Shown piece after piece: positions 8,232-64,000 of a DNA stretch of 64,000 bases (positions are counted from its first letter, which is position 1; every line of letters starts with the position of its first letter). The stretch is from NCBI GenBank assembly GCA_023229825.1, contig JALNYN010000005.1, positions 1,933 through 65,932 on the forward strand. The letters run 5' to 3'. The stretch is from Minisyncoccota bacterium. Its GTDB lineage: Bacteria > Patescibacteriota > Minisyncoccia > Phycocordibacterales > CAIJYI01. The position numbers were made by a program, and so were the translations under genes. The notes under the pieces are model-generated. The model was not told the DNA's origin. It saw only the letters and a program-made list of their open reading frames with translations, and made no database searches.

Positions 8232-9635
8232 TCACCAATTATTGGCGACGAATTCAGCAAGTTCGCTTCTTTCGCAGCCGACGAGCGTCACATGAGCGCA
8301 TCTCTGGCCGATCTTCGAGGATTCTACCGCATGGGTAAGTCCGCATGATTCGGCGGAAAGATACTGAGATGCAATTTGCCGGACATTTCCGAGAAAGACG
8401 AATTTCGTTCCCGGACCGGCGCGCGTGCCCAAGTCGAGCGCTTGTTTTGGCGTTAAATTTTCCGCTTCATCAACGACAACGAACTTTCTGTGGAATGTTC
8501 TGCCCTGCATCGGTCCAATGGAACGCATTTTGACGTAGCGCTTCATTAGATCCTGTGCCGTTTGTTTATGTGCAGCATCGATGCCTGATGTCAAAAAATC
8601 AAGGTTGTCGGTAAATGCCATAAGCCATGGAGCCATTTTCTGCTCTTCGTTGCCCGGAAAGGTCCCAGGGTCGATACCGATCGGCATGATCTCTTTGGTA
8701 ATAGTAATCTCGTTGTAGAGACGCCAGTCAATTACCTGCTCCAGTGCGGCAGCAAGAGTGAGGAGTGTTTTTCCCGACCCGGCTTTTCCGGCCCCGGAAA
8801 CGAAATGAATTTCAGGGTTCATGAGGGCATTCATAAAGAAGTTCTGCTCTTTATTGAGTGCATGAAGTCCCCAAACATTCTTATCTTTCGTATAATCATA
8901 AATAGTGCTGATGGTTGCGTAGCCTTCATAGTCGAGTTTGCGAACCATGAATTCTTGAATTCCTTCCTCTGTGATCAGGGTAAGAAATTGATTCGGAAAC
9001 CATGCGTTGGAAAGAGTGGTTTTTATATCCCAATACGTGAGTCCGTTCTCTTCTTTTTCGCTGAGCTTTTTGGTTTTTTTCCAAAAATTTTCCGGCAGAT
9101 CCGCCATTCCGCTGTAGAGAAAGTTGATATCGTCGATCGCTTTGGCTCTGGCGTACTCTTCCACTTTGACACCGCACATGAGCGCGGTGATCCGCGCGAT
9201 GCTATCTTGCGTTATGAAAATAACGTCAACGCTTTCCCCGAGTTTTTTTTGTAGTTCGCTCGCAAAATTTATGATGGGTGCATCGGGATTGAGCGGCATG
9301 AGCAGCAAGCTGGCATGACTTGATTCAAAAAATACGCGTCCGGTTTTTGAAGAAGGACCTTTTTTTCCGTAATAGGAAATAGCTTTGGATATCGGAAGTC
9401 CTTTTTCCAGATCGTCGGGACTGGCGCCGCGAAGAAGTTCGGAAAAATATTTGGTGGTGTGCCGAGCATTTTTTGCAAGTTCCGGTTTTCGGATATTGGT
9501 CTTATGATTATCCAGTTCGCGCATAACGGCGATAGGGACATAAATGTCATGCTCGTCGAAATTAAAAAGCGCGGCGGGATCATTCCCATAAATGCAGGTA
9601 TCCAGTACGAATACCGTTTCTTTTGTTCGCTTCAC
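8232..9635 (-). CDS. PhoH2-type protein (N-terminal PIN domain fused to PhoH-like ATPase)
   Basis: PIN-like VFVLDTCIY...D residues N-terminally; Walker A GAGKAGSGKT, Walker B VVVDEAEN; probable GTG start preceded by GGAGG (ORF track extends to 9689). Confidence 0.8.
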   Translation of the reverse strand: MKRTKETVFVLDTCIYGNDPAALFNFDEHDIYVPIAVMRELDNHKTNIRKPELAKNARHTTKYFSELLRGASPDDLEKGLPISKAISYYGKKGPSSKTGRVFFESSHASLLLMPLNPDAPIINFASELQKKLGESVDVIFITQDSIARITALMCGVKVEEYARAKAIDDINFLYSGMADLPENFWKKTKKLSEKEENGLTYWDIKTTLSNAWFPNQFLTLITEEGIQEFMVRKLDYEGYATISTIYDYTKDKNVWGLHALNKEQNFFMNALMNPEIHFVSGAGKAGSGKTLLTLAAALEQVIDWRLYNEITITKEIMPIGIDPGTFPGNEEQKMAPWLMAFTDNLDFLTSGIDAAHKQTAQDLMKRYVKMRSIGPMQGRTFHRKFVVVDEAENLTPKQALDLGTRAGPGTKFVFLGNVRQIASQYLSAESCGLTHAVESSKIGQRCAHVTLVGCERSELAEFVANNW

Positions 9636-33726: not shown

Positions 33727-36700
33727 ATGTATCAAAAATTCCAAGCTAAGCCTATTCACCACAAGGTCTTTTTTCTCGTGATTGCGGCTACCGTTCTTTT
33801 AAGCTCTGTTTTTGCCGGAATTTTGTATGCACAAAAAACGCTCGCCTCCTTAAATCCCGCTCCGTCGAATTTTATTCCAAACGATCCCTTCCAAATAAAA
33901 GGAGAAACCTCCGGCATCGACAAACATTTTGCCATCACCGATAGTGAATACCTGAACATCACCCTTGATAGTACCGAAAACATCGACCTCAAACTCGTTT
34001 CGCGTCCGAAAGTGATTACCATGATGTTCGAGGCGACCACAACAGCCCAAACAACTCAAATCACTATCTCCAATTTGGCAAAAGACACCACGTACTACAA
34101 ATACGAAGACGATTATCACAATCTCACACAATTCACTACCGACTCGAACGGAAGCTACACCTTCTCCCAAGATATTTCCACCCGCCACTTTGTATTCATC
34201 CAAACCAGAAAAAGCACCAAATTCATCGCTGACAACGCCACAGGAGGAGATTGTACCACGATCGGAACATGGGAAAGCACAACCAAAACCTGTACCCTAA
34301 CGCAAGACCTGACGGAAACCATACAGATCGACAGCGACGGCATCACACTCGACGGGAACGGACATAGCATATTGATCACTCCTGAGTATTCATCTGGCGG
34401 GGTGTATCTCTATGACAAAACGGGGGTTACCGTAAAGAACGTTACCATAAACGGATCACATAGCGGGGTTAGTATTAGCGGGGGAAGCAACAACCGCGTC
34501 GAAAATAGTACTTTTGTGGGTAACACCGGCGGTATTGGTATCAGATACGGCAACAACAATATCATTTCGAACAATACCCTCATTGGCACCGGTATTACTG
34601 TTACTTTTAGCAAAGACAATATTATTGAGTACAATACCGCTAATGATAATGATTATAACGGAATTTCTACTACGCTTTCTTCCGGAACCATTATCAGAAA
34701 CAATACTCTAAATAACAATAGGGTCAGCGGAATATATATTTATGATTCGCAGTTCAATGATCAGATCATTGATAATACTGCCCAAGAAAATGGATACCAA
34801 GATATCGTGCCATTCGGAGCAGAATCACACATACTTAAGTGCTATGATACGATAAGAGGAAATATCGGTTCGGGAGGCTATCCGATCGGATATTTCAGCA
34901 CTTCAACCACTTTAACTTCCGGCACATTCTCAGAACTCATCCTCTGCAACGCTGATCACTCCACTATACGCAACGTAAGAGTGCAAGGCTCTGCAGATAA
35001 GAAAAACGGTATTTTTTTGATAGCTCTCACGAATGATTCAAAATTCGAAAACATCAGCGTTACCAACTCGAACGGATTGCATATTTTGTTTTCCGACCGG
35101 AACGAGGTCGCCGGAGGAATGATGGATTCGAATCGGTACGGTATTACTCTGACGAATGCACATGATAACAGGATCCATGAAAACACGATCTCAAACAGCG
35201 AGACGAGCGCTCTTCGCTTTTTTGTGAAACAATCTTCCGACAATACCATTTACAACAATAATTTTATTAACAACATTTCTCTTTCTTTGGGGGATGGAAC
35301 TTCCAATATTTTTGATCTCCCAAAACCAATTGGGGGAAATTACTGGGACAGTTATCATACTACTGCACAAGGTTGCAACGATACAGATAACGATGGTTTC
35401 TGTGATGCGCCGTATGTTTTTGGAAATGGCGTGCAGGATAACATTCCGTGGACAACACAGGACGGATGGAAAAATGTTTCCGAAAAAACTTTGCAATACG
35501 GTTCCGTTTGGGAGGACGATCTCATTCAAGACCGAAGGGGAGGAGCGAACAAAACCAATTTCTTATTCAAAGTCGTGTATACCGACACGACCGCTTCAAC
35601 GCCGCACATCAGGCTTGTATTCTCCGGTCCGCAGGGAGAGATCAAACTCGGCATGGCTCCGGATACTTCCACCACAACCCCTCTCGAATATCACGACGGC
35701 AATCTCGCCAACGGCGAAGCATTTTCCCGAACCTTAACCTTCCCGAAAGGAACGTATCATTACCATTTCGAAACGGAAGACGGAACGGTAAAGCTGGAAA
35801 ACTCGGAGTATATATTTATGACCGGGTACAGCAATGTGGCGTTTATTCCCGGGTTGGAAGCTTCACGGCTCTTCAGACCCATTGTGGGAGGAGGCGCGCA
35901 GTTATGGCTTCCTGGCGCCAGTGCGCACGCAACAAAACTTTACCTCTCAAGCACAACAGGTGAAAGTTTGGATCCGTCTATTTATGTTTCAGGTGTGGTA
36001 AAAACGGCATATGGGGTAAGTATATATCAGAGTTTTCTTGATAAAATAGAGGAAATGAAAACCTCCGGCGACATAGAGCGCTTTGAAACTTTCCCTTATG
36101 ATTGGCGCAAGTATCAGCCGAACGCCGCCACTCAATTAGTGTCAACGGGACCGAACGGAGAATTTTACTCAATGATCGATCGGATCAAAGAAATGGCCGA
36201 TTCTTCACCAACGGGGAAGGTTGCTATAATCACTCATTCAAACGGCGGGCTTGTGGCAAAAGAATTGGCGGATGCGTTAAAACAACAAGGCAAAGCCAAT
36301 GATATTGAAAAGATTATCATGGTTGCCGCTCCGGAACTTGGAACTCCAAAAGCCATACTCGAAATGCTCCATGGAGCTGAACCATTCCTATTAGGCATAC
36401 CAAACAAAGAGACGACCCGCGAACTCGCCGAAAACATGAAAAGCGCATACTCGCTCTTACCGTCCCGTGAATATTTCAACCGACTTGGTACGCCTCTCCG
36501 CCCGCTTGTTGAATTCAGTACGACAACACAGGCAACTTTATCTTTCAGAAACATTTATGGAAATGATATATCGGATTACGATAATTTGCGCAAATTCTTG
36601 CGCGGTGAAAATGGAATAAGAAAAGAACCAGATCCGAGCGTAGTGAATGAGCCGAACGTACTTAAAGAGAATTTTCTTTCAGATGCGGAAGAACTTCACT

Positions 36701-37920
36701 TGAGACAGGATAATTGGACACCGCCGATCGGGGTGGAGGTCGTTCAAATAATCGGCTGGGGATTGGATACTCCGCATGGCGTGCTGTACACAAAAGCGCG
36801 CAAGCAAAAGACGGTATGCAATGCCGATCTTTCAGTTTGTACTAAAACAGACGTCATTGATCCGCAGCCGCTTAAGACTACTATAGAGGGTGATGGTACG
36901 GTGCAGTATGTTTCTGCTGAGGCGATGGGAGGGGAGAAATACTGGGTGGATATGACCCAACATAATGCATGGTGGCAGTATAATATAAACCGCGACCACA
37001 AAAATATTCTTGAAATCGGTTCACTTCAAACACTACTCGCTACTCTAATAAAGAACCAATCAACAAGTACTTTTCCTGAATATATAACAAATGTAAAACC
37101 GATTCCGCCAACAGTCGACAAACGCCTCCGCATCAGTGCACACTCTCCCGTTTCGCTCCATCTCTACGATTCATTCGGAAAACATACGGGAATTATCCCG
37201 AACCCTGATCTGCAATCTGATTTTGATTTTGTCGAGGAACAAATTCTCAACAGCTACTATTGGCGAATTGGAGAAGGACAGTATACCGGAGTAGGAGCTG
37301 AAGCGACCACGACTATCGTATTGAAAGGAAAAGAAACTGGAACATTCACTCTTGAAATTCAAGAAGTTGTCGGCGGAGAAAACGCTGAAAAAACATTTTT
37401 CCAAAATATCCCCACCACGGCAAGTACCACCGCGACCGTGCAGGTTGGAGAAAATGTGATATCACTGCTCGCTGTTGACCTCGATGGCAACGGAACGATA
37501 GATGCTGAATTTTCGGCAAATGACAATGGAATGATAAGCGATCCCCTCGCATATCTTTCACTTATGAAGAAAACCGTTTCTTCTTTCTCCCTCAAAAAAC
37601 AAACCGAAAAACAGATTTTAACAGACCTTTCTCTGATCGAAAAAACTCTGGAGAACTTTATCAAACTGGACGACAAAACGAAGAAAATTTATGAAAAGCT
37701 CGATTCTAAAATTCGAAACGAAAAATTGAGAGAAAAGTGGAAAGAGTGGAGGGACAAGCATCTTATTCAAAGGAATACGCTTGAAGATAAAATATTGTTC
37801 AATCTGGTAGAGAATGCGGAGAAAAATGTTATTCGACTGAGAAAACAGAAAGAAATATCCATAGACCAAGCGGATATATTATTTACTATGCTTGAGGAGT
37901 TAAAAAGTTTAATTAAATGA
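33727..37920 (+). CDS. giant secreted/anchored protein: right-handed beta-helix (NosD/pectate-lyase-like) + alpha/beta-hydrolase (lipase/PGAP1-like) + Ca-binding-like DxDGNGxID module + coiled-coil tail
   Basis: Signal/anchor VFFLVIAATVLLSS; long series of NxTxxGN beta-helix repeats, GGNYWDSYHT...CNDTDNDGFCD; IITHSNGGLVA nucleophile-elbow-like motif; VDLDGNGTIDAEF; Lys/Glu-rich C-terminus. Confidence 0.7.
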   Translation: MYQKFQAKPIHHKVFFLVIAATVLLSSVFAGILYAQKTLASLNPAPSNFIPNDPFQIKGETSGIDKHFAITDSEYLNITLDSTENIDLKLVSRPKVITMMFEATTTAQTTQITISNLAKDTTYYKYEDDYHNLTQFTTDSNGSYTFSQDISTRHFVFIQTRKSTKFIADNATGGDCTTIGTWESTTKTCTLTQDLTETIQIDSDGITLDGNGHSILITPEYSSGGVYLYDKTGVTVKNVTINGSHSGVSISGGSNNRVENSTFVGNTGGIGIRYGNNNIISNNTLIGTGITVTFSKDNIIEYNTANDNDYNGISTTLSSGTIIRNNTLNNNRVSGIYIYDSQFNDQIIDNTAQENGYQDIVPFGAESHILKCYDTIRGNIGSGGYPIGYFSTSTTLTSGTFSELILCNADHSTIRNVRVQGSADKKNGIFLIALTNDSKFENISVTNSNGLHILFSDRNEVAGGMMDSNRYGITLTNAHDNRIHENTISNSETSALRFFVKQSSDNTIYNNNFINNISLSLGDGTSNIFDLPKPIGGNYWDSYHTTAQGCNDTDNDGFCDAPYVFGNGVQDNIPWTTQDGWKNVSEKTLQYGSVWEDDLIQDRRGGANKTNFLFKVVYTDTTASTPHIRLVFSGPQGEIKLGMAPDTSTTTPLEYHDGNLANGEAFSRTLTFPKGTYHYHFETEDGTVKLENSEYIFMTGYSNVAFIPGLEASRLFRPIVGGGAQLWLPGASAHATKLYLSSTTGESLDPSIYVSGVVKTAYGVSIYQSFLDKIEEMKTSGDIERFETFPYDWRKYQPNAATQLVSTGPNGEFYSMIDRIKEMADSSPTGKVAIITHSNGGLVAKELADALKQQGKANDIEKIIMVAAPELGTPKAILEMLHGAEPFLLGIPNKETTRELAENMKSAYSLLPSREYFNRLGTPLRPLVEFSTTTQATLSFRNIYGNDISDYDNLRKFLRGENGIRKEPDPSVVNEPNVLKENFLSDAEELHLRQDNWTPPIGVEVVQIIGWGLDTPHGVLYTKARKQKTVCNADLSVCTKTDVIDPQPLKTTIEGDGTVQYVSAEAMGGEKYWVDMTQHNAWWQYNINRDHKNILEIGSLQTLLATLIKNQSTSTFPEYITNVKPIPPTVDKRLRISAHSPVSLHLYDSFGKHTGIIPNPDLQSDFDFVEEQILNSYYWRIGEGQYTGVGAEATTTIVLKGKETGTFTLEIQEVVGGENAEKTFFQNIPTTASTTATVQVGENVISLLAVDLDGNGTIDAEFSANDNGMISDPLAYLSLMKKTVSSFSLKKQTEKQILTDLSLIEKTLENFIKLDDKTKKIYEKLDSKIRNEKLREKWKEWRDKHLIQRNTLEDKILFNLVENAEKNVIRLRKQKEISIDQADILFTMLEELKSLIK

Positions 37921-38384
37921 ACATGAAACAAAATAATAAACTATATAAATACATTACTTTCGTCATATCTTTATTTTTCGTAGTCATTTTATGTGGGTTG
38001 CTGTTTTATTCTTATACCAAGTCCTCCTGTTCTTATTATTTGAAGGGGACATATCAAATAGATTCAAATTGTTATGATATTCGTGAGTATTATAATCACT
38101 TTAACCAAATTGTAGTTGCATTATTAATGAGTTTTTCTTCCCTATTTCTGATTTCAATTTTCCTCCTCTTCGTCCGCCGCGAAGCATTCATCGCATGGTC
38201 AAAATTCGCAGCCGTGGCGTTTCCCATCATGCTGGGCACCCTGTTGTATACTTTCACTCACGAAAGCGACGGTGCGGCATGGATGAGCGGTCCGTCCAAT
38301 GCTCAAATAGCGATGACGATTTTACCGTTTCTGTTTACTGTCATTTCGTTAGCGATTATAGCCGTCAAACAAACGGAAAAATAA
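37917..38384 (+). CDS. small 4-TM membrane protein, paralog 1 of a triplicated family
   Basis: Shares WxKFAxxxxPI...AIIAVK C-terminal pattern with 39741..40166 and 40377..40820. Confidence 0.5.
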   Translation: MNMKQNNKLYKYITFVISLFFVVILCGLLFYSYTKSSCSYYLKGTYQIDSNCYDIREYYNHFNQIVVALLMSFSSLFLISIFLLFVRREAFIAWSKFAAVAFPIMLGTLLYTFTHESDGAAWMSGPSNAQIAMTILPFLFTVISLAIIAVKQTEK

Positions 38385-38392
38385 AGAAATTA

Positions 38393-38546
38393 CTTAACCA
38401 ATGCAACCGACGTCAACATTACAAAAAATATCCCACCGAAAATTTCAGACAAACGGCACCCGGTTTTTTCCGCGCGACACTTTCATATGCAAAAAGAAAC
38501 GTTACAACACGCGTTTATCAAAACAATGGTGCCTGTCCCCATTTTC
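38393..38546. repeat. ~160-bp direct repeat unit H, copy 1 (ends in family-C REP-like hairpin)
   Basis: ttaaccaatgcaaccgac...ttccgcgcgacactttcatatgcaaaaagaaacgttacaacacgcgtttatcaaaacaatggtgcctgtccccatttt; near-identical at 40160-40333, degenerate at 40814-40979. Confidence 0.6.
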
Positions 38547-39674
38547 CACAACTGGATCCCGCCGAAAAGCGTGCGCGTGGTGCAGATCGCCGGATGGGGA
38601 ATACCTGATACCATTCGCGGACTCGAATACAAAGGGAATTTTCACGAACGATGTACCAGCGCGGGGATGAACAGTTTTTGTCACGACGAAGGAACGTTTG
38701 ATTATGCTCCTCTCTTTACGTTCGACGGCGATGGAACAGTGGTTTTTCCGAGTCAGATCGGAATGGCAACGGCGACGGAGATGTATTTTGTGGATTTAAA
38801 TGGGTATAATAATTCGCTCGGTAACTCAACAATAAATTTTCGAAAGGATAGAACGCATGCTTCGGTACTAGAAGTGGGTGATCTGAGAGATTTATTGAAA
38901 AGCATAATTTCAGAAGAAATAAATCCAGCGAATGGTTTGAATTACATTAAAACCAGCATTACTCAGTTAAACACGGGAAGCCTTAAAAAACTCATCCGCC
39001 TTTCCCTTCGTTCCCCCGTAAAAATCGACGTCTTTGACCAGCAAGGAAGCCATATCGGAATTTCCTCAAGCTCAACGCCAAGTTATACACTCTACGATAC
39101 TCAAATGCCGAACTCATATTATTTAGAAATGGGAGAGGGAAAGTATCTCGGTTTTTCGCTTGATTCGACGAAGACGATAAAACTTCAAGGTATAGGAACG
39201 GGAACTTTCACTTTATCATTCGATCAATATCAAGGAGATACCAAGGAAGCGTCTCAAACTTTTACTGATATTCCGGTAAGTACAACGACCAAAGCGACGC
39301 TTTTGATGAGTACTATAAATGATGCTAAGGAACTTTCTCTTGATAATGATGGAAATGGAACAATTGACACGATTGTCTTCACTGACGAAAACAAAGAGAC
39401 GATAACCTTTCAAACTCTGAAAAATGAAATTCTAAAACTTGATTCAAAAGTACGACCTTCTTTGGTCAATCAAGTTTCAACTGCGGAGAAACAATTTGCC
39501 AAAAAGAATTATACCACAACAAAAGCGCTGTTTATTGTTCTTAAAAAAGAAATCAACCTCCTTTCGCAAAAAAAGATAGGGAATAAATGGCAGATTGAGA
39601 AAATTCAGGCATTAAAAATCTTGGCAGTAATTGACGTACTTATCGCTCAAATGGATGAGTTTGTTCATCGCTGA
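38487..39674 (+). CDS. paralog of the C-terminal ~400 aa of the giant protein (lacks signal peptide, beta-helix and hydrolase parts)
   Basis: HNWIPPKSVRVVQIAGWG / LSLRSPVKIDVFDQQGSH / GTGTFTLSFDQ / LDNDGNGTIDTIVF align with residues ~1000-1397 of 33727..37920. Confidence 0.5.
   Translation: MQKETLQHAFIKTMVPVPIFHNWIPPKSVRVVQIAGWGIPDTIRGLEYKGNFHERCTSAGMNSFCHDEGTFDYAPLFTFDGDGTVVFPSQIGMATATEMYFVDLNGYNNSLGNSTINFRKDRTHASVLEVGDLRDLLKSIISEEINPANGLNYIKTSITQLNTGSLKKLIRLSLRSPVKIDVFDQQGSHIGISSSSTPSYTLYDTQMPNSYYLEMGEGKYLGFSLDSTKTIKLQGIGTGTFTLSFDQYQGDTKEASQTFTDIPVSTTTKATLLMSTINDAKELSLDNDGNGTIDTIVFTDENKETITFQTLKNEILKLDSKVRPSLVNQVSTAEKQFAKKNYTTTKALFIVLKKEINLLSQKKIGNKWQIEKIQALKILAVIDVLIAQMDEFVHR
38525..38545 (+). 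repeat. family-C REP-like hairpin (aatggtgcctgtccccatt)
   Basis: AATGG...CCATT stem with tgcctg loop; coincides with codons MVPVPIF of downstream ORF and with the start of homology to the giant protein. Confidence 0.5.
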
Positions 39675-39740
39675 GAAAATGAGCCAAAGAGATGGAAAAA
39701 ATAAAGGAGAAGATGAAAAAATCAATAACTAACTATTTTT

Positions 39741-40166
39741 ATGCAATACAAAAAACAAGTTTTAGGATTATTTATAACAACTACGACAATTTTTGCGCTC
39801 ATAGTTGCTTTAGGTGAATTATTTGACTCCCAATGCAACTCGGCAGTCGGTTTTTTTGATGATCTATGTCATAATTCGAGCAATATCCAATTATTCACAC
39901 AACCTATTGCGTTGCTCTCTCTCTCTCTTATTATTATCCTTCCCCCCCTCTACTTCTTCCGCGGAGAAATCTATCTCGCATGGCGCAAATTCACTCTCTG
40001 GTATCTTCCAATTGTTGCCATTCTCCTCATTATTGCTCGCCCCTCTGGCGGCGGTATGAGCTTTGGTTTTGACCGCGAATCTCTCTCTTTTCATTTTTCC
40101 GCATATTTCGTTATCGTTTCGCTGGTTATCATTGCAGTAAAATCATGGAAATTAAGAGGGAAGTAA
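39741..40166 (+). CDS. small 4-TM membrane protein, paralog 2
   Basis: WRKFTLWYLPIVAILLIIARP...VIIAVKSWKLRGK. Confidence 0.5.
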   Translation: MQYKKQVLGLFITTTTIFALIVALGELFDSQCNSAVGFFDDLCHNSSNIQLFTQPIALLSLSLIIILPPLYFFRGEIYLAWRKFTLWYLPIVAILLIIARPSGGGMSFGFDRESLSFHFSAYFVIVSLVIIAVKSWKLRGK

Positions 40167-40333
40167 AACGTGAGAAAATTTTAACCAATGCAACCGACAG
40201 TAACATTACAAAAAACATCCAACAGAAAATTTCAGACAAACGGCGTCCGATTTTTTCCGCGCGACACTTTTATATGCAAAAAGAAACGTTACAACACGCG
40301 TTTATCAAAACAATGGTGCCTGTCCCCATTTTC
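40160..40333. repeat. direct repeat unit H, copy 2
   Basis: Starts within the last codons of paralog 2 and runs through a second copy of the MQKETLQHAFIKTMVPVPIF start and REP-C hairpin. Confidence 0.6.
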
Positions 40334-40372
40334 GCTTTGTTTGAAAGATTAAAAGAGATAATTATGAAATAA
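40274..40372 (+). pseudogene. truncated remnant of a 38487-type gene (first 20 codons identical, then stop)
   Basis: MQKETLQHAFIKTMVPVPIF identical to N-terminus of 38487..39674, followed by 12 unrelated codons and a stop. Confidence 0.45.
40312..40330 (+). repeat. family-C REP-like hairpin
   Basis: aatggtgcctgtccccatt. Confidence 0.5.
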
Positions 40373-40376
40373 ACTT

Positions 40377-40820
40377 ATGAATTATAGAAAAAAAATATTA
40401 TTATTTTATTTTACTTTATGTTTTTTCCTGTTAATAAGTATTATTCCATTTGCACCTCATTGGTTTGGATTTTGTGATAGTTTTGTAGACTACGAATGCA
40501 AAGATAAATTCAACAAATATAAGTTGTTTAGTGCGATTATTTCATTTGCATCTTCAATTATTATATTCGGTGCACTTTTAGTTCGTCTTCGAATTAAATC
40601 AAAAGAAGCGTTTCTGGTGTGGCAAAAATTTGCAATTATTTGGATTCCGATTTCTATACTCCTCATTGCAAGAGCTCCCGCTCAACGCGACTGTTTTTTC
40701 GGTGGACCTTTTTGCTCCGGGTTTGACCGAGAAGGAATGATTTGGTTTACGGCAGGCATCTTTTTTATTGTGTCCATTGCCATTATCGCAGTAAAAACAT
40801 GGAAATTGAAAGGGAAGTAA
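40377..40820 (+). CDS. small 4-TM membrane protein, paralog 3
   Basis: WQKFAIIWIPISILLIARAP...IIAVKTWKLKGK. Confidence 0.5.
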   Translation: MNYRKKILLFYFTLCFFLLISIIPFAPHWFGFCDSFVDYECKDKFNKYKLFSAIISFASSIIIFGALLVRLRIKSKEAFLVWQKFAIIWIPISILLIARAPAQRDCFFGGPFCSGFDREGMIWFTAGIFFIVSIAIIAVKTWKLKGK

Positions 40821-40979
40821 ACCGTGAGAAAATTTTAACCAATGGAACCACCAACCGGATTACAAAAAATATCCCACCGAAAATTTCAGATAAACAGCTG
40901 CCAAGTTTTTCCGCGCAGCCCCTTCACCATAAGCAAAAAAACACCTCAACACATATTTTGAAAAGAATGGGTGCCTGGA
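40814..40979. repeat. direct repeat unit H, copy 3 (degenerate; ends in degenerate family-C motif agaatgggtgcctgga)
   Basis: gggaagtaaaccgtgagaaaattttaaccaatggaacc... aligns with copies 1 and 2. Confidence 0.5.
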
Positions 40980-41060
40980 TTTATTCAACCTTGAACTGCA
41001 ACAGTCGTCGTTGATGGTCGATAGCGCGCCGAACTTAACGAACACAGAAGAAAAGTTCGA

Positions 41061-41096
41061 AAAAACTCGCCGGCTTGCGGCGAGTTTTGTTTTCTT
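41061..41096. terminator. bidirectional terminator
   Basis: aaaactcgccggcttgcggcgagtttt. Confidence 0.75.
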
Positions 41097-60656: not shown

Positions 60657-60700
60657 TTTCAAGGATTTGTGCTATGATAGCCAGTGTAAATCGAGATATT

Positions 60701-60770
60701 GGGGTGTAGTGTAATGGTAACACGCCTGCCTTTGAAGCAGGAGACTCTTGGTTCGAGCCCAAGCGCCCCA
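60701..60770 (+). tRNA. tRNA-Gln (anticodon TTG)
   Basis: Acceptor GGGGTGT/GCGCCCC (two G-U pairs), anticodon stem CCTGC/GCAGG with loop CTTTGAA, T-arm CTTGG-TTCGAGC-CCAAG; CCA not encoded. Confidence 0.7.
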
Positions 60771-60847
60771 GCACGCAAAAAATTACCTCGCAAAGGAGTA
60801 TCTTTTGCAGGTGATTTTTGTGTAAATTATTAGCATACGGATTTTAA

Positions 60848-60869
60848 AAAGAATGAGTGCCTGACTACC
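60848..60869 (+). repeat. family-C REP-like hairpin (degenerate)
   Basis: aaagaatgagtgcctgactacc between tRNA-Gln and ATPase gene. Confidence 0.45.
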
Positions 60870-60903
60870 GTTCGTAAGAGAATTATAACTGTCTCGAATT
60901 TAT

Positions 60904-62625
60904 ATGATTAAGAAGATTACCTTAGAAAATTTTCGATGTTTTCAGAAACATACATTATGCTTCCGGGACTTAACGGTTATTGTTGGTAAAAACAATGCAG
61001 GAAAATCCACTATTGTTGAAGCGTTGCGTTTAATTTCTTTAGTAACAAATAGGTACAGAAAACTTCCATATAAAATGCCTCCCGATTGGACTGATTTACC
61101 TAAAAAGTGTTTAGGAGTGAGTCCTTCTATAAAAGGACTGGATATTGGTTTAAATGGGTTATTTTTTCAAAACAACGATGGACCAGCAAAAATAACTGTT
61201 TTTTTTGATAATAACGCAAAAATCGATTTAATGATTGGAGAAAAAGCTGAGTTGTTCGCGTTAATATTTGACAGTCAGGGTAAGATTATTTTAAATAAAT
61301 CACAGGCGTTAATAAATGAGATGTCAGAAATAAACATTCTTCCTCAAATTGGTCCATTAAAAGACAAGGAGGATTTGCTTACTGAAGAATATGTGAAATA
61401 TAATATTTTTTCAAATCTCGCGTCCTTACATTTTCGAAACCAACTGATTCATCTCGGACAGTACTTTAATAAATTTAAAGAACTTTCAGAAAGTAGTTGG
61501 GAAGGTTTAAAAATAATTAGGTTTGAAAAAGGAAGTCAGTTAAATGATGAACCACCTTTTTTGCTCGTAGAAGATAGCAACTTTATTGGAGAGATTGCAA
61601 CAATGGGGCACGGCTTACAAATGTGGCTACAAACGATGTGGTTTCTCGCGAGATGTGATAAAAATTCAATCGTAATATTAGATGAGCCAGATGTTTATCT
61701 TCATGCAGATATGCAAAGAAATCTTATTAACTTCTTTAGGTGTAAATTTAAACAGGCGATAATAGCAACACATTCGATTGAAATCATTTCGGATGTTGAA
61801 CCGCTTAATATTTTGGTGGTAAAAAGAGAAAATAACGAGTCTGTGTTTCTAGATGGTGTTCCCGGGGTACAACAAATTATTGAGAGTTTGGGGAGCGTGC
61901 ATAATTTAGAATTAATCCGCTATTGGTCGGCAAAAAAATTCATATTTTTAGAAGGAAAAAAAGATGATCTTAAAATACTAGAAATCCTTCAAAAATTGTT
62001 CACCCTCAGTCCCCTGAATCTTTCTTCGATACCAGTAGGGTACACAGATGGGTGGTCTGGGTGGGAAAGAGTAATTGGACTGAACATAGGTCTTAAGAAT
62101 ACTGGAGTAGAAACATATTGTGTATTTGACTCTGACTATCATTTACCCGACGAAATCGAAAACAGATTGTTGAGTGCAGGGAAAAATAACATAAAAATTC
62201 ATATTTGGGATAAAAAAGAAATAGAGAATTATCTCATAATTCCCGCCGCCGTACTAAGGTATATTAAAAAACAGGCACATATAGGAAACCCAACACTACA
62301 ACTTATCAACAGTAAGGTATTAGGAATAGCCGAAGAGATAAAAAATGATATTGTGGATAATATTTCTGATGAAATAAAGAAAAGCGATCGCGGATTAAGC
62401 GTATCTACATGTAATAAAAAAGCAAGAGAAATGGTAAATACAAAATGGCAGCATCCTGATGATATTTTAACTATTATTCCAGGAAAACAAGTATTATCTT
62501 CTCTTAGCGATTGGTCTAAGCAGGAATTCAATGTATCTTTCAGTAAATTTCAAATTGCTAGTGAGCTTATTGAGTCTGAAATTAATAACGAGATAATTCG
62601 TGTTTTGAAATTTCTTCAAACTTGA
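60904..62625 (+). CDS. OLD-family-like protein: N-terminal ABC-type ATPase fused to C-terminal Toprim-like nuclease domain
   Basis: ITLENFRCF + Walker A GKNNAGKST, Q-loop, signature-like GHGLQ, Walker B ILDEPDVYLH, H-loop ATHS; C-terminal FIFLEGKKDD (Glu) and CVFDSDYH (DxD) spaced as in Toprim. Confidence 0.65.
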   Translation: MIKKITLENFRCFQKHTLCFRDLTVIVGKNNAGKSTIVEALRLISLVTNRYRKLPYKMPPDWTDLPKKCLGVSPSIKGLDIGLNGLFFQNNDGPAKITVFFDNNAKIDLMIGEKAELFALIFDSQGKIILNKSQALINEMSEINILPQIGPLKDKEDLLTEEYVKYNIFSNLASLHFRNQLIHLGQYFNKFKELSESSWEGLKIIRFEKGSQLNDEPPFLLVEDSNFIGEIATMGHGLQMWLQTMWFLARCDKNSIVILDEPDVYLHADMQRNLINFFRCKFKQAIIATHSIEIISDVEPLNILVVKRENNESVFLDGVPGVQQIIESLGSVHNLELIRYWSAKKFIFLEGKKDDLKILEILQKLFTLSPLNLSSIPVGYTDGWSGWERVIGLNIGLKNTGVETYCVFDSDYHLPDEIENRLLSAGKNNIKIHIWDKKEIENYLIIPAAVLRYIKKQAHIGNPTLQLINSKVLGIAEEIKNDIVDNISDEIKKSDRGLSVSTCNKKAREMVNTKWQHPDDILTIIPGKQVLSSLSDWSKQEFNVSFSKFQIASELIESEINNEIIRVLKFLQT

Positions 62626-62637
62626 GGAAATTTTAGT

Positions 62638-62661
62638 CAGAATGGGTGCCTGACCCCGATT
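62638..62661 (+). repeat. family-C REP-like hairpin
   Basis: cagaatgggtgcctgaccccgatt. Confidence 0.5.
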
Positions 62662-62710
62662 CTACTTATTCAAAATTCATGTACTAATGATTTAATCGGA
62701 TTGAAAAAAA

Positions 62711-63217
62711 ATGGATTGGGAAACCTTTATTATTGCTATACTTGGATCTGGTGCTGTTACCGCGCTTGTTAATGTATGGATGAATCACCGAACTCAAATT
62801 CGCGCAATAAAAGAGTCGGGGCTATATTCAAAACGAGCCGAAGTATTAGATGAAATAATGAAAAGAATGGAGGAACTCCATCGAATTATGGGGGAACTCG
62901 TTTCTTTTTTTCAAGATGACGGGTCGGCTGATGCTGAAAAAGCCCGACGTAAAAAAACAGCCGAGGCGTTTAATTGTTTTTTGGAGTATCTCAAGAGAAA
63001 TAGGCACTATTTACCACGGAAATTATCCGAGGAAATACAACACCTCTGCGATGAATATAAAGAGTTATTTATGAGTTTTTCTTTTGAAGCAAGGCCAGAA
63101 GAGGGGAGGTCAGACCTTAAAAAATGGAAATCGCTTATTGATAGGTACGATATGGATTTTACAGATCAACAGGAATGTATAGCCGACGAGTTTAGAAAAA
63201 TAATCGGTGTTAAATAA
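62711..63217 (+). CDS. hypothetical protein with N-terminal TM helix and helical cytoplasmic domain (partner of the ATPase-nuclease gene)
   Basis: FIIAILGSGAVTALVNVW hydrophobic helix, then charged helical region; no recognisable motif. Confidence 0.4.
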   Translation: MDWETFIIAILGSGAVTALVNVWMNHRTQIRAIKESGLYSKRAEVLDEIMKRMEELHRIMGELVSFFQDDGSADAEKARRKKTAEAFNCFLEYLKRNRHYLPRKLSEEIQHLCDEYKELFMSFSFEARPEEGRSDLKKWKSLIDRYDMDFTDQQECIADEFRKIIGVK

Positions 63218-63228
63218 TAGGTAATGGT

Positions 63229-63247
63229 AATGGGGTCAGGCACTATT
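63229..63247 (-). repeat. family-C REP-like hairpin, inverted orientation, immediately upstream of RAYT
   Basis: aatggggtcaggcactatt = reverse complement of aatagtgcctgaccccatt. Confidence 0.55.
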
Positions 63248-63261
63248 GTTTTTAAAAAAGT

Positions 63262-63957
63262 ATGATACAATATTCTCCTATGCCAAGAAATGAAAGAGTT
63301 GATGTCGGGGGTGAAGTCTATCACGTCATAAACAGAGGAAATGGCAGGCAGACTATTTTCCAAAATGAAGAAGACTATCTTCTTTTTGAATCACTGCTTG
63401 AACACGCAAAGGAATTTATTGTGGATATGAGAATCATCGCTTATACGATTATGCCGAATCATTGGCATCTTGTTTTGTATCCAAAAAAGGACGGTGATCT
63501 TTCTCTCTTTATGCACTGGCTTACGACAAGCCACACCCGAAAACATCATGTCATGAAAGAAAATATCGGTGGCGGGCATCTCTATCAAGGAAGATACAAA
63601 TCATTTCTTGTGGATACGGACAGTTATTTTCTCTCTGTTTTTAAATACGTAGAAAGAAATCCGATGAGGGCAAAGTTGACGGAAAATTGTGAAGATTGGC
63701 GATGGGGAAGTTCGTGGAGAAGATCGAACGGTTCGGAAAAAGAGAAAAAATTGCTTTCCTCGCCGCTCGTTGATTTTCCGGAAAAATACAGCGTATGGAT
63801 AAACAAACCGGAAAAAGAAGATGATGTTGTAAAGATCAGAAATTCGATAAATAAAGGAGTACCGTATGGTCGCGATATTTGGAGTATGGATATGGTTGAA
63901 AAATATGAATTGTCTTCATCGCTGAATAAGCCGGGGAGACCGAAGAAAAAACATTAG
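63262..63957 (+). CDS. REP-associated tyrosine transposase (RAYT; IS200/IS605-like Y1 HuH transposase family)
   Basis: HuH motif IMPNHWHLVL and catalytic Tyr context YQGRYKSFLVDTDSYFLSVFKYVERNPMRA; flanked by inverted REP-C hairpins. Confidence 0.8.
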   Translation: MIQYSPMPRNERVDVGGEVYHVINRGNGRQTIFQNEEDYLLFESLLEHAKEFIVDMRIIAYTIMPNHWHLVLYPKKDGDLSLFMHWLTTSHTRKHHVMKENIGGGHLYQGRYKSFLVDTDSYFLSVFKYVERNPMRAKLTENCEDWRWGSSWRRSNGSEKEKKLLSSPLVDFPEKYSVWINKPEKEDDVVKIRNSINKGVPYGRDIWSMDMVEKYELSSSLNKPGRPKKKH

Positions 63958-63972
63958 AACATGAAAATTACA

Positions 63973-63995
63973 AAAGAATGGTGCCTGACCCCATT
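63973..63995 (+). repeat. family-C REP-like hairpin, direct orientation, immediately downstream of RAYT
   Basis: aaagaatggtgcctgaccccatt. Confidence 0.55.
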
Positions 63996-64000
63996 AACCA

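What the first reader, a model, noticed from the sequence alone, without database searches (positions are those of the whole stretch)
38393..40979. REP-like hairpins sit exactly at homology junctions of a triplicated gene cassette
Three small 4-TM protein genes are each followed by a ~160-bp conserved segment (copies 1 and 2 about 90% identical, copy 3 degenerate). Each segment ends in the family-C hairpin. In copy 1 the hairpin is read as codons MVPVPIF of ORF 38487..39674, and homology to the giant protein begins immediately after it. In copy 2 the same start is followed by a stop, leaving a 33-codon remnant. The pattern suggests REP/RAYT-mediated or hairpin-stimulated recombination shaping this locus.
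Basis: seen in the sequence. Interest (0 to 1): 0.6.

Follow-up and report, generated by a model that had tools for sequence, protein, structure and literature searches.

The report
Transposase-linked repeats mark gene-truncation breakpoints
In an uncultured Paceibacterota (CPR) bacterium, a 50-base repeat that also flanks a nearby transposase-like gene lies exactly where two lipase-like genes were cut short; related genomes show the same repeat end at other truncation points, so it looks like a recurrent breakpoint, which is a known kind of repeat behaviour seen here in a little-studied lineage.

Summary
Three small 4-TM genes are each followed by a ~153-nt segment (copies 1 and 2 are 93% identical, copy 3 is 62%). 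Each segment ends in the GTGCCTG(T/A)CCCCATT motif. Homology of ORF 38487 to the giant protein starts right after that motif.

The window encodes a Y1 (IS200-like, RAYT-type) transposase at 63262-63957, flanked by inverted copies of the same motif. That layout is conserved in three more Paceibacterota loci.

Several details of the reading change:
- The repeat is a ~50-nt unit with only a weak hairpin (-1.8 to -3.6 kcal/mol).
- The "triplication" is old. The TM proteins are only 26-28% identical.
- ORF 38487 is a 5'-truncated remnant of a second lipase-like gene. Its counterpart in the closest relative is a 1066-aa ORF.
- The "33-codon remnant" is segment sequence plus the last 12 codons of a third lipase-like paralog.

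Six independent junctions, two here and four in related metagenome contigs, place the repeat's outer end within about 0-3 nt of a 5'-truncated ORF. Each has a different truncation point.

My best reading is rearrangement anchored at the repeat terminus. The enzymatic step is inferred, not shown. The 5' ~105 nt of the segment are unusually conserved, and I could not explain that.

The parts
33727..37920 (+). Giant protein A (1397 aa): NosD/beta-helix region plus an LCAT-type alpha/beta-hydrolase domain (nucleophile elbow THSNGG) and a C-terminal region. This is the first, intact unit of the array.
   Evidence: Pfam NosD 1.3e-32, Beta_helix 8.6e-30, LCAT 1.8e-14 at aa 765-1075. The THSNGG motif is read.
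37917..38384 (+). TM1, a small membrane protein (155 aa).
   Evidence: ORF list. 28% and 26% identical to TM2 and TM3. No family match. An exact copy is present in two other samples.
38385..38547 (+). Segment 1: the TM1 3' region with a small GC hairpin plus T6 (38451-38469), followed by a ~50-nt REP unit (38496-38547; motif 38525-38543).
   Evidence: The unit HMM matches only the last ~50 nt.
38547..39674 (+). 5'-truncated remnant of lipase-like paralog B. It is called as ORF 38487 or 38526 to 39674, with the start codons supplied by segment 1. It lacks the nucleophile elbow.
   Evidence: 33% identical to giant aa 996-1267. 58.5% identical to the C-terminal part of the 1066-aa ORF in L011, and 63% to L012. 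No closer full-length copy in 5.8 billion proteins.
39741..40166 (+). TM2 (141 aa).
40167..40333 (+). Segment 2: 93% identical to segment 1, and the last 62 nt are identical. REP unit 40283-40333.
40334..40372 (+). Last 12 codons plus the stop (ALFERLKEIIMK*) of a third lipase-like paralog, abutting the REP end.
   Evidence: Translation. DNA homology to L051 starts at 40338, and L051 keeps the longer ORF ending ...FERLKEVIIK*. Compare the giant A end ...LEELKSLIK*.
40377..40820 (+). TM3 (147 aa). It is 69% identical to the TM gene in L051.
40821..40987 (+). Segment 3, degenerate: a 2-nt deletion, and a REP unit that keeps only the left arm and loop (40947-40977).
   Evidence: 87% identical to L040b, which has an intact unit.
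41062..41088 (+). Strong intrinsic-terminator-like hairpin that closes the array, upstream of dnaJ.
   Evidence: 11-bp stem followed by a T run.
63262..63957 (+). RAYT-type Y1 (HUH) transposase gene. It carries the motifs NHWHLVL and KYVERNP.
   Evidence: Pfam Y1_Tnp 52.9 bits (cutoff 23). NCBIfam REP_Tyr_transpos 58 bits, below its cutoff of 80. More than 5000 relatives in metagenomes; those with a source name are mostly Paceibacterota/Parcubacteria-group MAGs.
63226..63278 (-). Inverted REP unit upstream of the RAYT gene. Its inner motif reads as a TGnTAcAAT-like -10 element facing the gene.
   Evidence: The same arrangement is seen in L050, L057 and L058.
63949..63998 (+). Direct REP unit downstream of the RAYT gene. 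Its inner motif holds the gene's stop codon.
60820..60873 (+). REP unit between tRNA-Gln and the AriA/OLD-like ATPase gene.
62628..62663 (+). REP unit between the ATPase gene and the 168-aa ORF.

Best explanation
The 'family-C hairpin' is the outer end of a ~50-nt repeat unit, consensus ATATTA(G/T/C)A(A/C)CAC..AAAA(C/G)AATGGTGCCTG(A/T)CCCCATT(T)CC. This unit is a solo copy of the two terminal inverted repeats that flank a RAYT-type Y1 transposase gene in this Paceibacterota genome, so the whole forms a REPtron-like system.

The locus at 33.7-41.1 kb is an old tandem array of three paralogous units, each a surface lipase-like gene followed by a small TM gene. Each unit ends in a conserved 3' segment. 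That segment is the TM gene's 3' region with a weak hairpin-T6 terminator, followed by one repeat unit.

Units 2 and 3 lost the 5' part of their lipase genes. About two thirds of the gene is gone in unit 2, and all but 12 codons in unit 3. In both cases the upstream breakpoint lies at the repeat's outer terminus. Related genomes show the same terminus joined to other truncation points. The terminus is therefore a preferred site of DNA breakage and joining.

The most likely mechanisms (inferred) are one of two:
- The RAYT nicks single-stranded DNA just 3' of the motif and joins it to a downstream site.
- A repeat unit inserts into the lipase gene, and recombination with the unit at the end of the upstream segment then deletes the DNA between them.

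ORF 38487 is the leftover. It lacks the catalytic serine and borrows its start codon from the segment.
For: Shown:
- The repeat family is real and transposase-linked. Seven units occur in the window against ~0 expected. A scan of JGI metagenomes for the exact pattern returned 16 related contigs; together with the window and its extension they give 36 listed occurrences, some of them duplicate loci.
- The RAYT gene is flanked by inverted units here and in L050 (70% identity), L057 (82%) and L058 (60%). In L058 both flanks carry the variant GTGGCTG.
- In the unit-by-unit census, the units outside the segments lie between plausible genes; three overlap only short unsupported ORFs.
- In all 28 homologous loci found in other CPR species (genome-contig scan) the homolog is one long lipase-type protein followed by TM genes, with no segment and no repeat. 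L011 has a 1066-aa ORF plus a TM gene. The window ORF is therefore a truncation.
- Six junctions put the repeat end within ~0-3 nt of a truncated ORF: giant-equivalent aa 996 and the last 12 codons (window), ORFtr aa ~330 and giant aa 1151 (L040), giant aa 1166 (L051), and a signal-peptide protein without an evident ATG start or charged N-terminal region (L053).
- The same 3' end is a hot spot elsewhere. Tandem partial reiterations have a fixed 3' end and a variable 5' end in L045/L049, L047, L046 and L044/L050/L001.
- The junction is present in independent assemblies from two other samples.

From the literature: TnpA(REP) cleaves ssDNA 5' or 3' of REPs and performs strand transfer (PMC8266576). 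REPs have been reported at duplication join-points (Shyamala 1990, as cited in PMC7661048).
Against: - No direct evidence that the RAYT cuts here.
- The hairpin is weak and lacks GT[AG]G.
- No common motif is visible at the variable ends of the junctions.
- Truncated lipase fragments also occur without repeats: L053 has a TM-gene start fused to giant aa 1225, and L056 comes from another lineage.
- The repeat-bearing genomes are related, so lineage effects are confounded with the presence of the repeat.
- No structural variation was seen among three samples of this strain.
- The explanation does not account for the conservation of the segment's 5' part. It is 89-91% identical between segment 1, segment 2 and L040a, while the flanking proteins are ~50% identical.
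Confidence: 0.55

Rival explanations
1. Ordinary decay limited by selection. Redundant lipase paralogs are eroded by random deletions in a compact genome. The segment and repeat are kept because they serve the upstream TM gene, for example as a terminator or mRNA-stabilising 3' end. Erosion therefore stops at their edge, and the repeat plays no mechanistic part.
For: - The segment contains a hairpin plus an invariant T6 at the place where relatives without the repeat have a terminator.
- Truncated fragments occur without repeats.
- The genes are tightly packed.
Against: - All six independent junctions lie within ~0-3 nt of the unit's natural end. Random deletion endpoints would be expected to leave spacers of varied length.
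- The same end is reiterated in tandem at unrelated sites.
- Segment 3 shows that the unit itself can be damaged.
Confidence: 0.2
2. Modules of 'lipase fragment + TM gene + segment' are copied or exchanged as units. This could happen by one-ended HUH (rolling-circle-like) copying that ends at the repeat terminus. It could also happen by homologous exchange that uses the conserved segments as portable homology, in the way orphan toxin/immunity modules or cassette arrays are exchanged.
For: - The right end is constant and the left end is variable.
- The segments are far more conserved than the genes they flank, both within and between genomes.
- In L040 a TM2-like gene carries a segment-3-type end.
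- Foreign low-GC genes in the window are also bounded by units.
Against: - No near-identical source copy of ORF 38487 was found anywhere, including in the same assembly. The next best hit is 61% identical.
- L011 and L012 show that a full-length ancestor existed in place.
- No circular or empty-site evidence was found.
- The segment was never found away from a TM gene.
Confidence: 0.12
3. The segment is itself a gene, either a small protein (frame MQPT...KQWCLSPF) or a small RNA. The junctions would then be incidental.
For: - The ATG is invariant in 7 copies.
- Apart from a 2-nt deletion in degenerate segment 3, the internal indels among copies are multiples of 3 nt.
- The downstream ORF is in frame with a segment or repeat ATG at all 6 junctions.
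Against: - There is no codon periodicity: 0.29, 0.24 and 0.25 differences at codon positions 1, 2 and 3.
- The fold is no better than shuffled sequence (z from -0.8 to +1.1), and no helices are supported by covariation on either strand.
- No Rfam match.
- No protein with this N-terminus in the 5.8-billion-protein search.
- The in-frame count has a chance probability of about 0.04 by my own estimate.
Confidence: 0.08
4. Assembly artefact: repeats caused a chimeric join in the metagenome contig.
For: Logan contigs break at the segments.
Against: - L005 and L006 (two other samples) run from inside the repeat through the ORF and TM2 into segment 2 at 100% identity. L009 and L010 cover giant-TM1-segment 1.
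- The longest identical stretch (~62 nt) is shorter than the assembler's k of 141, inferred from the contig name.
- Analogous junctions exist in unrelated JGI assemblies.
Confidence: 0.03

Closest known systems
REPtron / REP-RAYT systems (TnpA(REP) with REP/BIME/REPIN repeats; Nunvar 2010 PMC2817692; Quentin 2018 PMC6006769; Corneloup 2021 PMC8266576)
   Same: A Y1 HUH transposase-like gene is flanked by inverted copies of a short repeat. That repeat is also dispersed in intergenic DNA, and it co-varies with the gene between genomes (GTGCCTG versus GTGGCTG). Inverted doublets (L039) and tandem clusters (L045, L047) exist.
   Different: - The unit is ~50 nt and its palindrome is weak, with no 5' GT[AG]G.
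- The protein is ~225-231 aa and scores below the NCBIfam equivalog cutoff.
- The inner part of the unit looks like the gene's own -10 promoter element on the left, and holds the stop-codon region on the right, so the units resemble terminal inverted repeats.
- The host is a CPR bacterium. I found no paper on REP/RAYT in CPR in the held library.
REP sequences as join-points of chromosomal duplications and rearrangements (Shyamala, Schneider & Ames 1990, EMBO J; seen only as a citation in PMC7661048)
   Same: A short palindromic repeat lies at the novel junction of a rearrangement between tandem genes.
   Different: Here the junctions are deletions or truncations with one fixed end (the repeat terminus) and one variable, non-repeat end. 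They are not REP x REP exchanges. Six natural events are inferred from comparison, and none was observed experimentally.
IS200/IS605 insertion sequences and their non-autonomous derivatives
   Same: A Y1 transposase fold, subterminal hairpins, and an element terminus a few nt beyond the hairpin. Cleavage next to hairpins on ssDNA is the established chemistry.
   Different: The flanking hairpins are inverted here, not in the same orientation. No tnpB was seen in the parts of the window for which Pfam calls were available. The gene is not known to be multi-copy.
Orphan toxin/immunity module arrays of polymorphic toxin loci (CDI, Rhs), and integron cassette arrays
   Same: A large secreted or surface protein gene is followed by small membrane-protein genes, 5'-truncated C-terminal fragments with their own small genes, and conserved elements between modules.
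   Different: - No toxin or immunity function is shown.
- Truncation points are scattered rather than at a fixed demarcation motif.
- No integrase was seen in the annotated parts of the window, and no attC-like core sites were noticed in the segment (no formal scan was run).
- This is a resemblance only.

Membership tests
REP/RAYT (REPtron) | A gene encoding a Y1 HUH transposase of the RAYT type (HUH motif plus catalytic Tyr). | tested here: met
   Pfam Y1_Tnp E=5e-14, 52.9 bits against a cutoff of 23. The best NCBIfam model is REP_Tyr_transpos at 58 bits, which is below its equivalog cutoff of 80. HWH and Y-x-x-x-NP are visible in the sequence. phmmer against the PDB found no solved relative.
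REP/RAYT (REPtron) | The gene is flanked by at least two cognate repeats in inverted orientation. | tested here: met
   Units at 63226-63278(-) and 63949-63998(+). The same arrangement is present in L050, L057 and L058.
REP/RAYT (REPtron) | The same repeat is dispersed, mostly intergenic and overrepresented in the genome. | tested here: inconclusive
   Seven units occur in 64 kb, but they sit at only two loci. Sixteen related contigs carry 1-3 units each, essentially intergenic. The whole genome was not available, so copy number per genome is unknown.
REP/RAYT (REPtron) | The repeat is a stable imperfect palindrome with a conserved 5' GT[AG]G guide tetranucleotide. | tested here: not met
   5-bp stem and 9-nt loop, -1.8 to -3.6 kcal/mol. 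No GT[AG]G at the foot. Quentin 2018 describes subclasses whose flanking repeats also lack GTAG and fold weakly, so this is an atypical member rather than an exclusion.
REP/RAYT (REPtron) | Repeat and transposase co-evolve, with one repeat family per gene. | tested here: met
   L058 (60% identity) has GTGGCTG on both flanks. L057 (82%) has GTGCCTG with an altered right arm.
REP/RAYT (REPtron) | A single RAYT copy per genome. | not testable with these tools
   Only a 78-kb contig is held. L057 has a second Y1_Tnp ORF (153 aa) next to the gene.
REP/RAYT (REPtron) | The protein cleaves and rejoins single-stranded repeat DNA. | not testable with these tools
   This is biochemistry. It is known for the E. 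coli, Stenotrophomonas and Marinomonas enzymes (PMC8266576).
IS200/IS605 insertion sequence | Left- and right-end hairpins in the same orientation, multi-copy, often with tnpB. | tested here: not met
   The flanks are inverted. No tnpB appears among the Pfam-annotated genes of window ~28-53 kb and ~58-64 kb. The rest of the window was not scanned.
Integron cassette array | An IntI integrase plus attC sites with inverted core sites (RYYYAAC ... GTTRRRY) at cassette ends. | tested here: not met
   The segment ends in CCCCATTTTC, and I noticed no pairing between its two ends. No formal core-site scan was run. No integrase appears in the annotated neighbourhood.
Structured non-coding RNA or small protein gene (for the 153-nt segment) | Conserved secondary structure with covariation, or codon periodicity. 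| tested here: not met

The most novel reading that the evidence does not exclude
The conserved 153-nt segment with its repeat terminus is a dedicated module for shuffling. A RAYT-type enzyme, or recombination at the segments, captures, truncates and exchanges modules of 'lipase fragment + small membrane protein' in a hypervariable surface-protein locus of CPR bacteria. The segment would also supply a start codon to whatever lands downstream. The downstream ORF is in frame at all six junctions examined, and the segments are about 90% conserved across genomes whose flanking proteins are about 50% identical. This would be an integron-like or orphan-module-like diversification system built on a domesticated HUH transposase.
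Probability: 0.1. Interest if true: 0.8.

Novelty: new member of a known kind. Interest (0 to 1): 0.45.

Why it matters
REP/RAYT systems have been characterised mainly in Proteobacteria. Here a large, unnamed family of about 225-aa Y1 transposase-like genes shows the same gene-plus-cognate-repeat organisation. The family has more than 5000 protein clusters and is annotated only as "transposase"; the named members are mostly Paceibacterota/Parcubacteria-group MAGs.

The locus also gives a natural series of junctions in which the repeat terminus is the fixed breakpoint. That offers a concrete substrate and a predicted cleavage position for testing what these domesticated transposases do. It also helps explain how hypervariable surface-protein and membrane-protein arrays are remodelled in very small genomes.

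On the practical side, ORF 38487 and the 33-codon ORF should be annotated as remnants rather than genes.

Tried and rejected
- **Segment in other collections.** An exact-pattern scan for the segment found nothing in GTDB species genomes or in JGI metagenomes. The segment was later found only through the repeat pattern.
- **Segment as a tandem of degenerate repeat units.** The unit HMM matches only the last ~50 nt.
- **Small-protein gene in the segment.** There is no codon periodicity.
- **Structured RNA, including an omega-RNA-like scaffold ending at a transposon right end.** Fold z-scores are near 0, no helices are supported by covariation, and there is no Rfam hit.
- **Promoter or RBS support for ORF 38487.** There is no sigma-70-like site in segment 1 and no SD-like motif before ATG 38401, 38487 or 38526. 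However, only 10 of 29 checked genes in the window have one, so this is uninformative.
- **Recent partial duplication as the source of the truncated ORF.** Rejected. The ORF is 33% identical to giant A and 59-63% identical to homologs in other genomes (full-length in L011; cut by the contig end in L012), and there is no closer copy anywhere.
- **Strain-level variation.** Logan contigs from two other samples are 100% identical apart from one SNP, and they simply break at the repeats.
- **Solved structure for the RAYT.** phmmer found none.
- **Synteny with L042 (dnaJ 76% aa).** The array is not upstream of dnaJ there, and I did not follow this further.
Full report
**Observation**

The region contains, in order on the + strand:
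- a 1397-aa ORF (33727-37920);
- TM1 (37917-38384);
- ORF 38487-39674;
- TM2 (39741-40166);
- TM3 (40377-40820).

The repeat finder reports one 153-nt direct-repeat family at 38394-38546, 40181-40333 (93%) and 40835-40987 (62%) (aligned). Each copy begins just after a TM stop codon and ends in AATGGTGCCTGTCCCCATT. The third copy is degenerate.

The 19-mer is not a chance match. With up to 3 mismatches it gives 4 matches against 0.01 expected, and the extra two lie at 63229(-) and 63977(+). BLASTP of the giant protein against ORF 38487 gives 33% identity over 284 aa (E=8e-35). The alignment starts at ORF residue 22 and giant residue 996, immediately after the codons MVPVPIF. The description is correct.

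**What the hairpin is**

ORF 63262-63957 lies between the two extra motif copies, which are in inverted orientation.
- It matches Pfam Y1_Tnp (52.9 bits, cutoff 23).
- Its best NCBIfam model is REP_Tyr_transpos (58 bits, below the equivalog cutoff of 80).
- It carries HWH and Y..NP motifs.

A looser scan and an HMM find seven units in the window: three in the cassette and four around this gene.

Scanning JGI metagenomes for the exact pattern returned 16 contigs. Aligning all copies shows that the conserved unit is about 50 nt: an inner motif ATTA(G/T/C)A(A/C)CAC, a spacer, then AAAA(C/G)AATGGTGCCTG(A/T)CCCCATT(T)CC.

The palindrome is weak, at -1.8 to -3.6 kcal/mol with a 5-bp stem, and it lacks the GT[AG]G of classical REPs.

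The arrangement of the gene between inverted units recurs at RAYT homologs of 70% (L050), 82% (L057) and 60% identity (L058). In L058 both flanks carry GTGGCTG instead of GTGCCTG, so the repeat and the gene co-vary.

The family is very large: more than 5000 protein clusters, labelled only "transposase"; the named members are mostly Paceibacterota/Parcubacteria-group MAGs. This matches the REPtron concept, including the atypical, weakly folding repeats described for some TnpA(Y1) subclasses (PMC6006769). I found no paper on REP/RAYT in CPR in the held library.

**What the cassette is**

The giant protein has a NosD/beta-helix region and an LCAT-type hydrolase domain (aa 765-1075) with the nucleophile elbow THSNGG.

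A search of one genome per species found 28 homologous loci, all from MAGs and most labelled as Patescibacteria/CPR lineages.
- In every one, the region homologous to ORF 38487 is the C-terminal part of a long lipase-type protein that includes the upstream hydrolase half.
- It is usually followed by one to three small TM genes.
- The closest, L011 (58.5% identity), has a 1066-aa ORF plus a TM gene.
- None of these loci has the segment or the repeat.

ORF 38487 is therefore a 5'-truncated remnant of a second paralog. It lacks the catalytic serine. The three TM proteins are only 26-28% identical, so the array is old.

The short ORF after segment 2 ends ALFERLKEIIMK*. DNA homology to L051 begins at 40338, and in L051 this sequence is the end of a longer lipase-type ORF (...FERLKEVIIK*) that precedes a TM3 ortholog of 69% identity. 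The array is thus:
- lipase A - TM1 - segment 1;
- truncated lipase B - TM2 - segment 2;
- 12-codon tail of lipase C - TM3 - segment 3;
- terminator (41062-41088) - dnaJ.

**Recurrence of the junction**

Three of the JGI contigs carry segment homologs next to TM genes. Together with the window they give six junctions. In each, the outer end of the repeat unit is followed within about 0-3 nt by a 5'-truncated ORF, and the truncation point differs each time.

| Junction | What follows the repeat end |
|---|---|
| Window segment 1 | lipase B from giant-equivalent aa 996 |
| Window segment 2 | last 12 codons of lipase C |
| L040a | lipase B from about ORF residue 330 |
| L040b | a lipase fragment from giant aa 1151 |
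| L051 | a lipase A-like fragment from giant aa 1166 |
| L053 | a signal-peptide protein with no evident ATG start or charged N-terminal region |

Outside the segments, units lie between plausible genes; three overlap only short unsupported ORFs.

The same 3' end is also reiterated locally at unrelated sites, with a fixed 3' boundary and a variable 5' boundary:
- units with a 49-nt and a 39-nt period in L045/L049 and L047;
- TGACCCCATTAAC repeated three times after the RAYT gene in L044/L050;
- similar reiterations in L001 and L046.

The end of the unit behaves as a breakpoint in general.

There are controls that cut the other way:
- L053 has a lipase fragment (from aa 1225) fused to the start of a TM gene with no repeat.
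- L056, from another lineage, has a truncated homolog next to AT-rich DNA.
- L055 has a full-length homolog with an in-frame TAG and an ordinary terminator after its TM gene.

**The segment itself**

Only its last ~50 nt are the repeat unit. The first ~105 nt were found only downstream of TM genes.
- They contain a small GC hairpin with a variable loop plus an invariant T run. Relatives without the repeat have a terminator at about that position.
- They show no codon periodicity: 0.29, 0.24 and 0.25 differences at positions 1, 2 and 3.
- They do not fold better than shuffled sequence, and no helix is supported by covariation on either strand.
- They have no Rfam match.

Even so, the conservation is striking. 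The 5' parts of segment 1, segment 2 and L040a are 89-91% identical, and their last ~62 nt are identical (sequences). The adjacent TM and lipase sequences of L040 are only about 50% identical to the window's at the protein level. I could not explain this. Constraint, recent spread, or use of the segments as homology for exchange all remain possible.

At all six junctions the downstream ORF is in frame with an ATG in the segment or the repeat. By my estimate the chance probability is about 0.04, so this is suggestive only.

**Mechanism**

Shown:
- The repeat is linked to the transposase.
- The ORFs are truncations.
- The repeat terminus is a recurrent, tight junction.

Inferred: how the junction forms. 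TnpA(REP) enzymes cut ssDNA 5' or 3' of their repeats and carry out strand transfer (PMC8266576). REPs have been reported at duplication join-points (Shyamala 1990, cited in PMC7661048).

The unit's hairpin side is the outer terminus of the RAYT gene's inverted repeats. A transposase-type cut there is therefore plausible, followed by joining to a downstream site. Insertion of a unit into the lipase gene followed by unit-by-unit recombination is an alternative. I put about 0.55 on terminus-anchored rearrangement of either kind.

The rivals are:
- passive erosion that stops at a functional 3' element (0.2);
- module copying or exchange (0.12);
- the segment being a gene (0.08);
- an assembly artefact (0.03).

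The artefact reading is contradicted by 100% identical contigs from two other samples that cross the junction.

**Verdict**

This is a REPtron-like system in a CPR bacterium, a new member of a known kind. It comes with an unusually clear natural series of terminus-anchored truncations and with an unexplained conserved companion segment.

Noticed in passing
window 60820-63217: A low-GC island (33-36% against ~45%) lies next to tRNA-Gln (60700-60772). It holds an AriA/OLD/GajA-like AAA ATPase (60904-62625; PADLOC AriA 2.8e-25) and a 168-aa ORF, and each gene is bounded by REP units. Homologs of both genes are absent from the related JGI contigs, including the L044/L050 REPtron, and no similar genes appear in the L057/L058 gene tables. 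It looks like defence-type foreign DNA inserted at the REPtron.
   Followed up: partly
window 63226-63278; L050 3515-3565; L058 9946-10003: Read on the other strand, the inner motif of the repeat unit (ATTATACCAC) is GTGGTATAAT, an extended -10 promoter element facing the RAYT start codon. The inner motif of the right-hand unit (ATTAGAACAC) contains the RAYT stop codon. Dispersed units therefore look like solo copies of the gene's two terminal inverted repeats, and they could fire outward transcription.
   Followed up: partly
L050 3160-3560: An Rhs/YD-repeat protein fragment (...LYIHTDHLGGANVITDKNGVVVETLDYYPYGE...) is sandwiched between two inverted repeat units just upstream of the RAYT homolog. 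This is a second case of a gene fragment bounded by these repeats.
   Followed up: no
L045 113-191, L049 1575-1653, L047 1733-1823, L044 233-294 / L050 4265-4310, L001 5720-5760, L046 111-150: Tandem partial reiterations of the repeat unit or of its right arm, such as TGACCCCATTAAC repeated three times. They always keep a fixed 3' end and have a variable 5' end.
   Followed up: partly
window 38401-38546, 40188-40333; L040, L051, L053 segments: All seven segment copies keep an ATG at the same position. Apart from a 2-nt deletion in segment 3, the internal indels between copies are multiples of 3 nt. At all six junctions the downstream ORF is in frame with a segment or repeat ATG. Despite this there is no codon periodicity.
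   Followed up: yes
L053 1440-1500 (minus strand as read): A lipase fragment (from giant aa ~1225) begins with the first codons of a TM gene (MNY...), only ~11 nt after the previous TM stop. There is no segment or repeat, so this is a repeat-free junction in the same kind of array.
   Followed up: partly
L040 120-160, 555-595, 945-985, 2910-2945: Tandem TM genes that lack the segment are separated by a different conserved ~35-nt spacer, GCACATTCAAG(C/T)G(A/G)GTGTGG...AAATT, which contains a short CACA/GTGTG inverted repeat.
   Followed up: no
L055 1080-1090: A full-length lipase homolog from another organism in the same sample has an in-frame TAG where relatives have CAG (..VDSP*LGTPQ..). This is either a nonsense mutation or a sequencing error.
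   Followed up: no
window ~58.2-60.6 kb (L001 1-2331): hypC/hypD/hypE-like hydrogenase maturation genes (HupF_HypC, HypD, AIRS) lie immediately upstream of the tRNA-Gln and REPtron region in this small-genome CPR bacterium.
   Followed up: no
L057 9521-9982: A second, shorter Y1_Tnp ORF (153 aa) lies directly upstream of the RAYT homolog of 82% identity, with extra repeat units further upstream (about 9208-9330).
   Followed up: no
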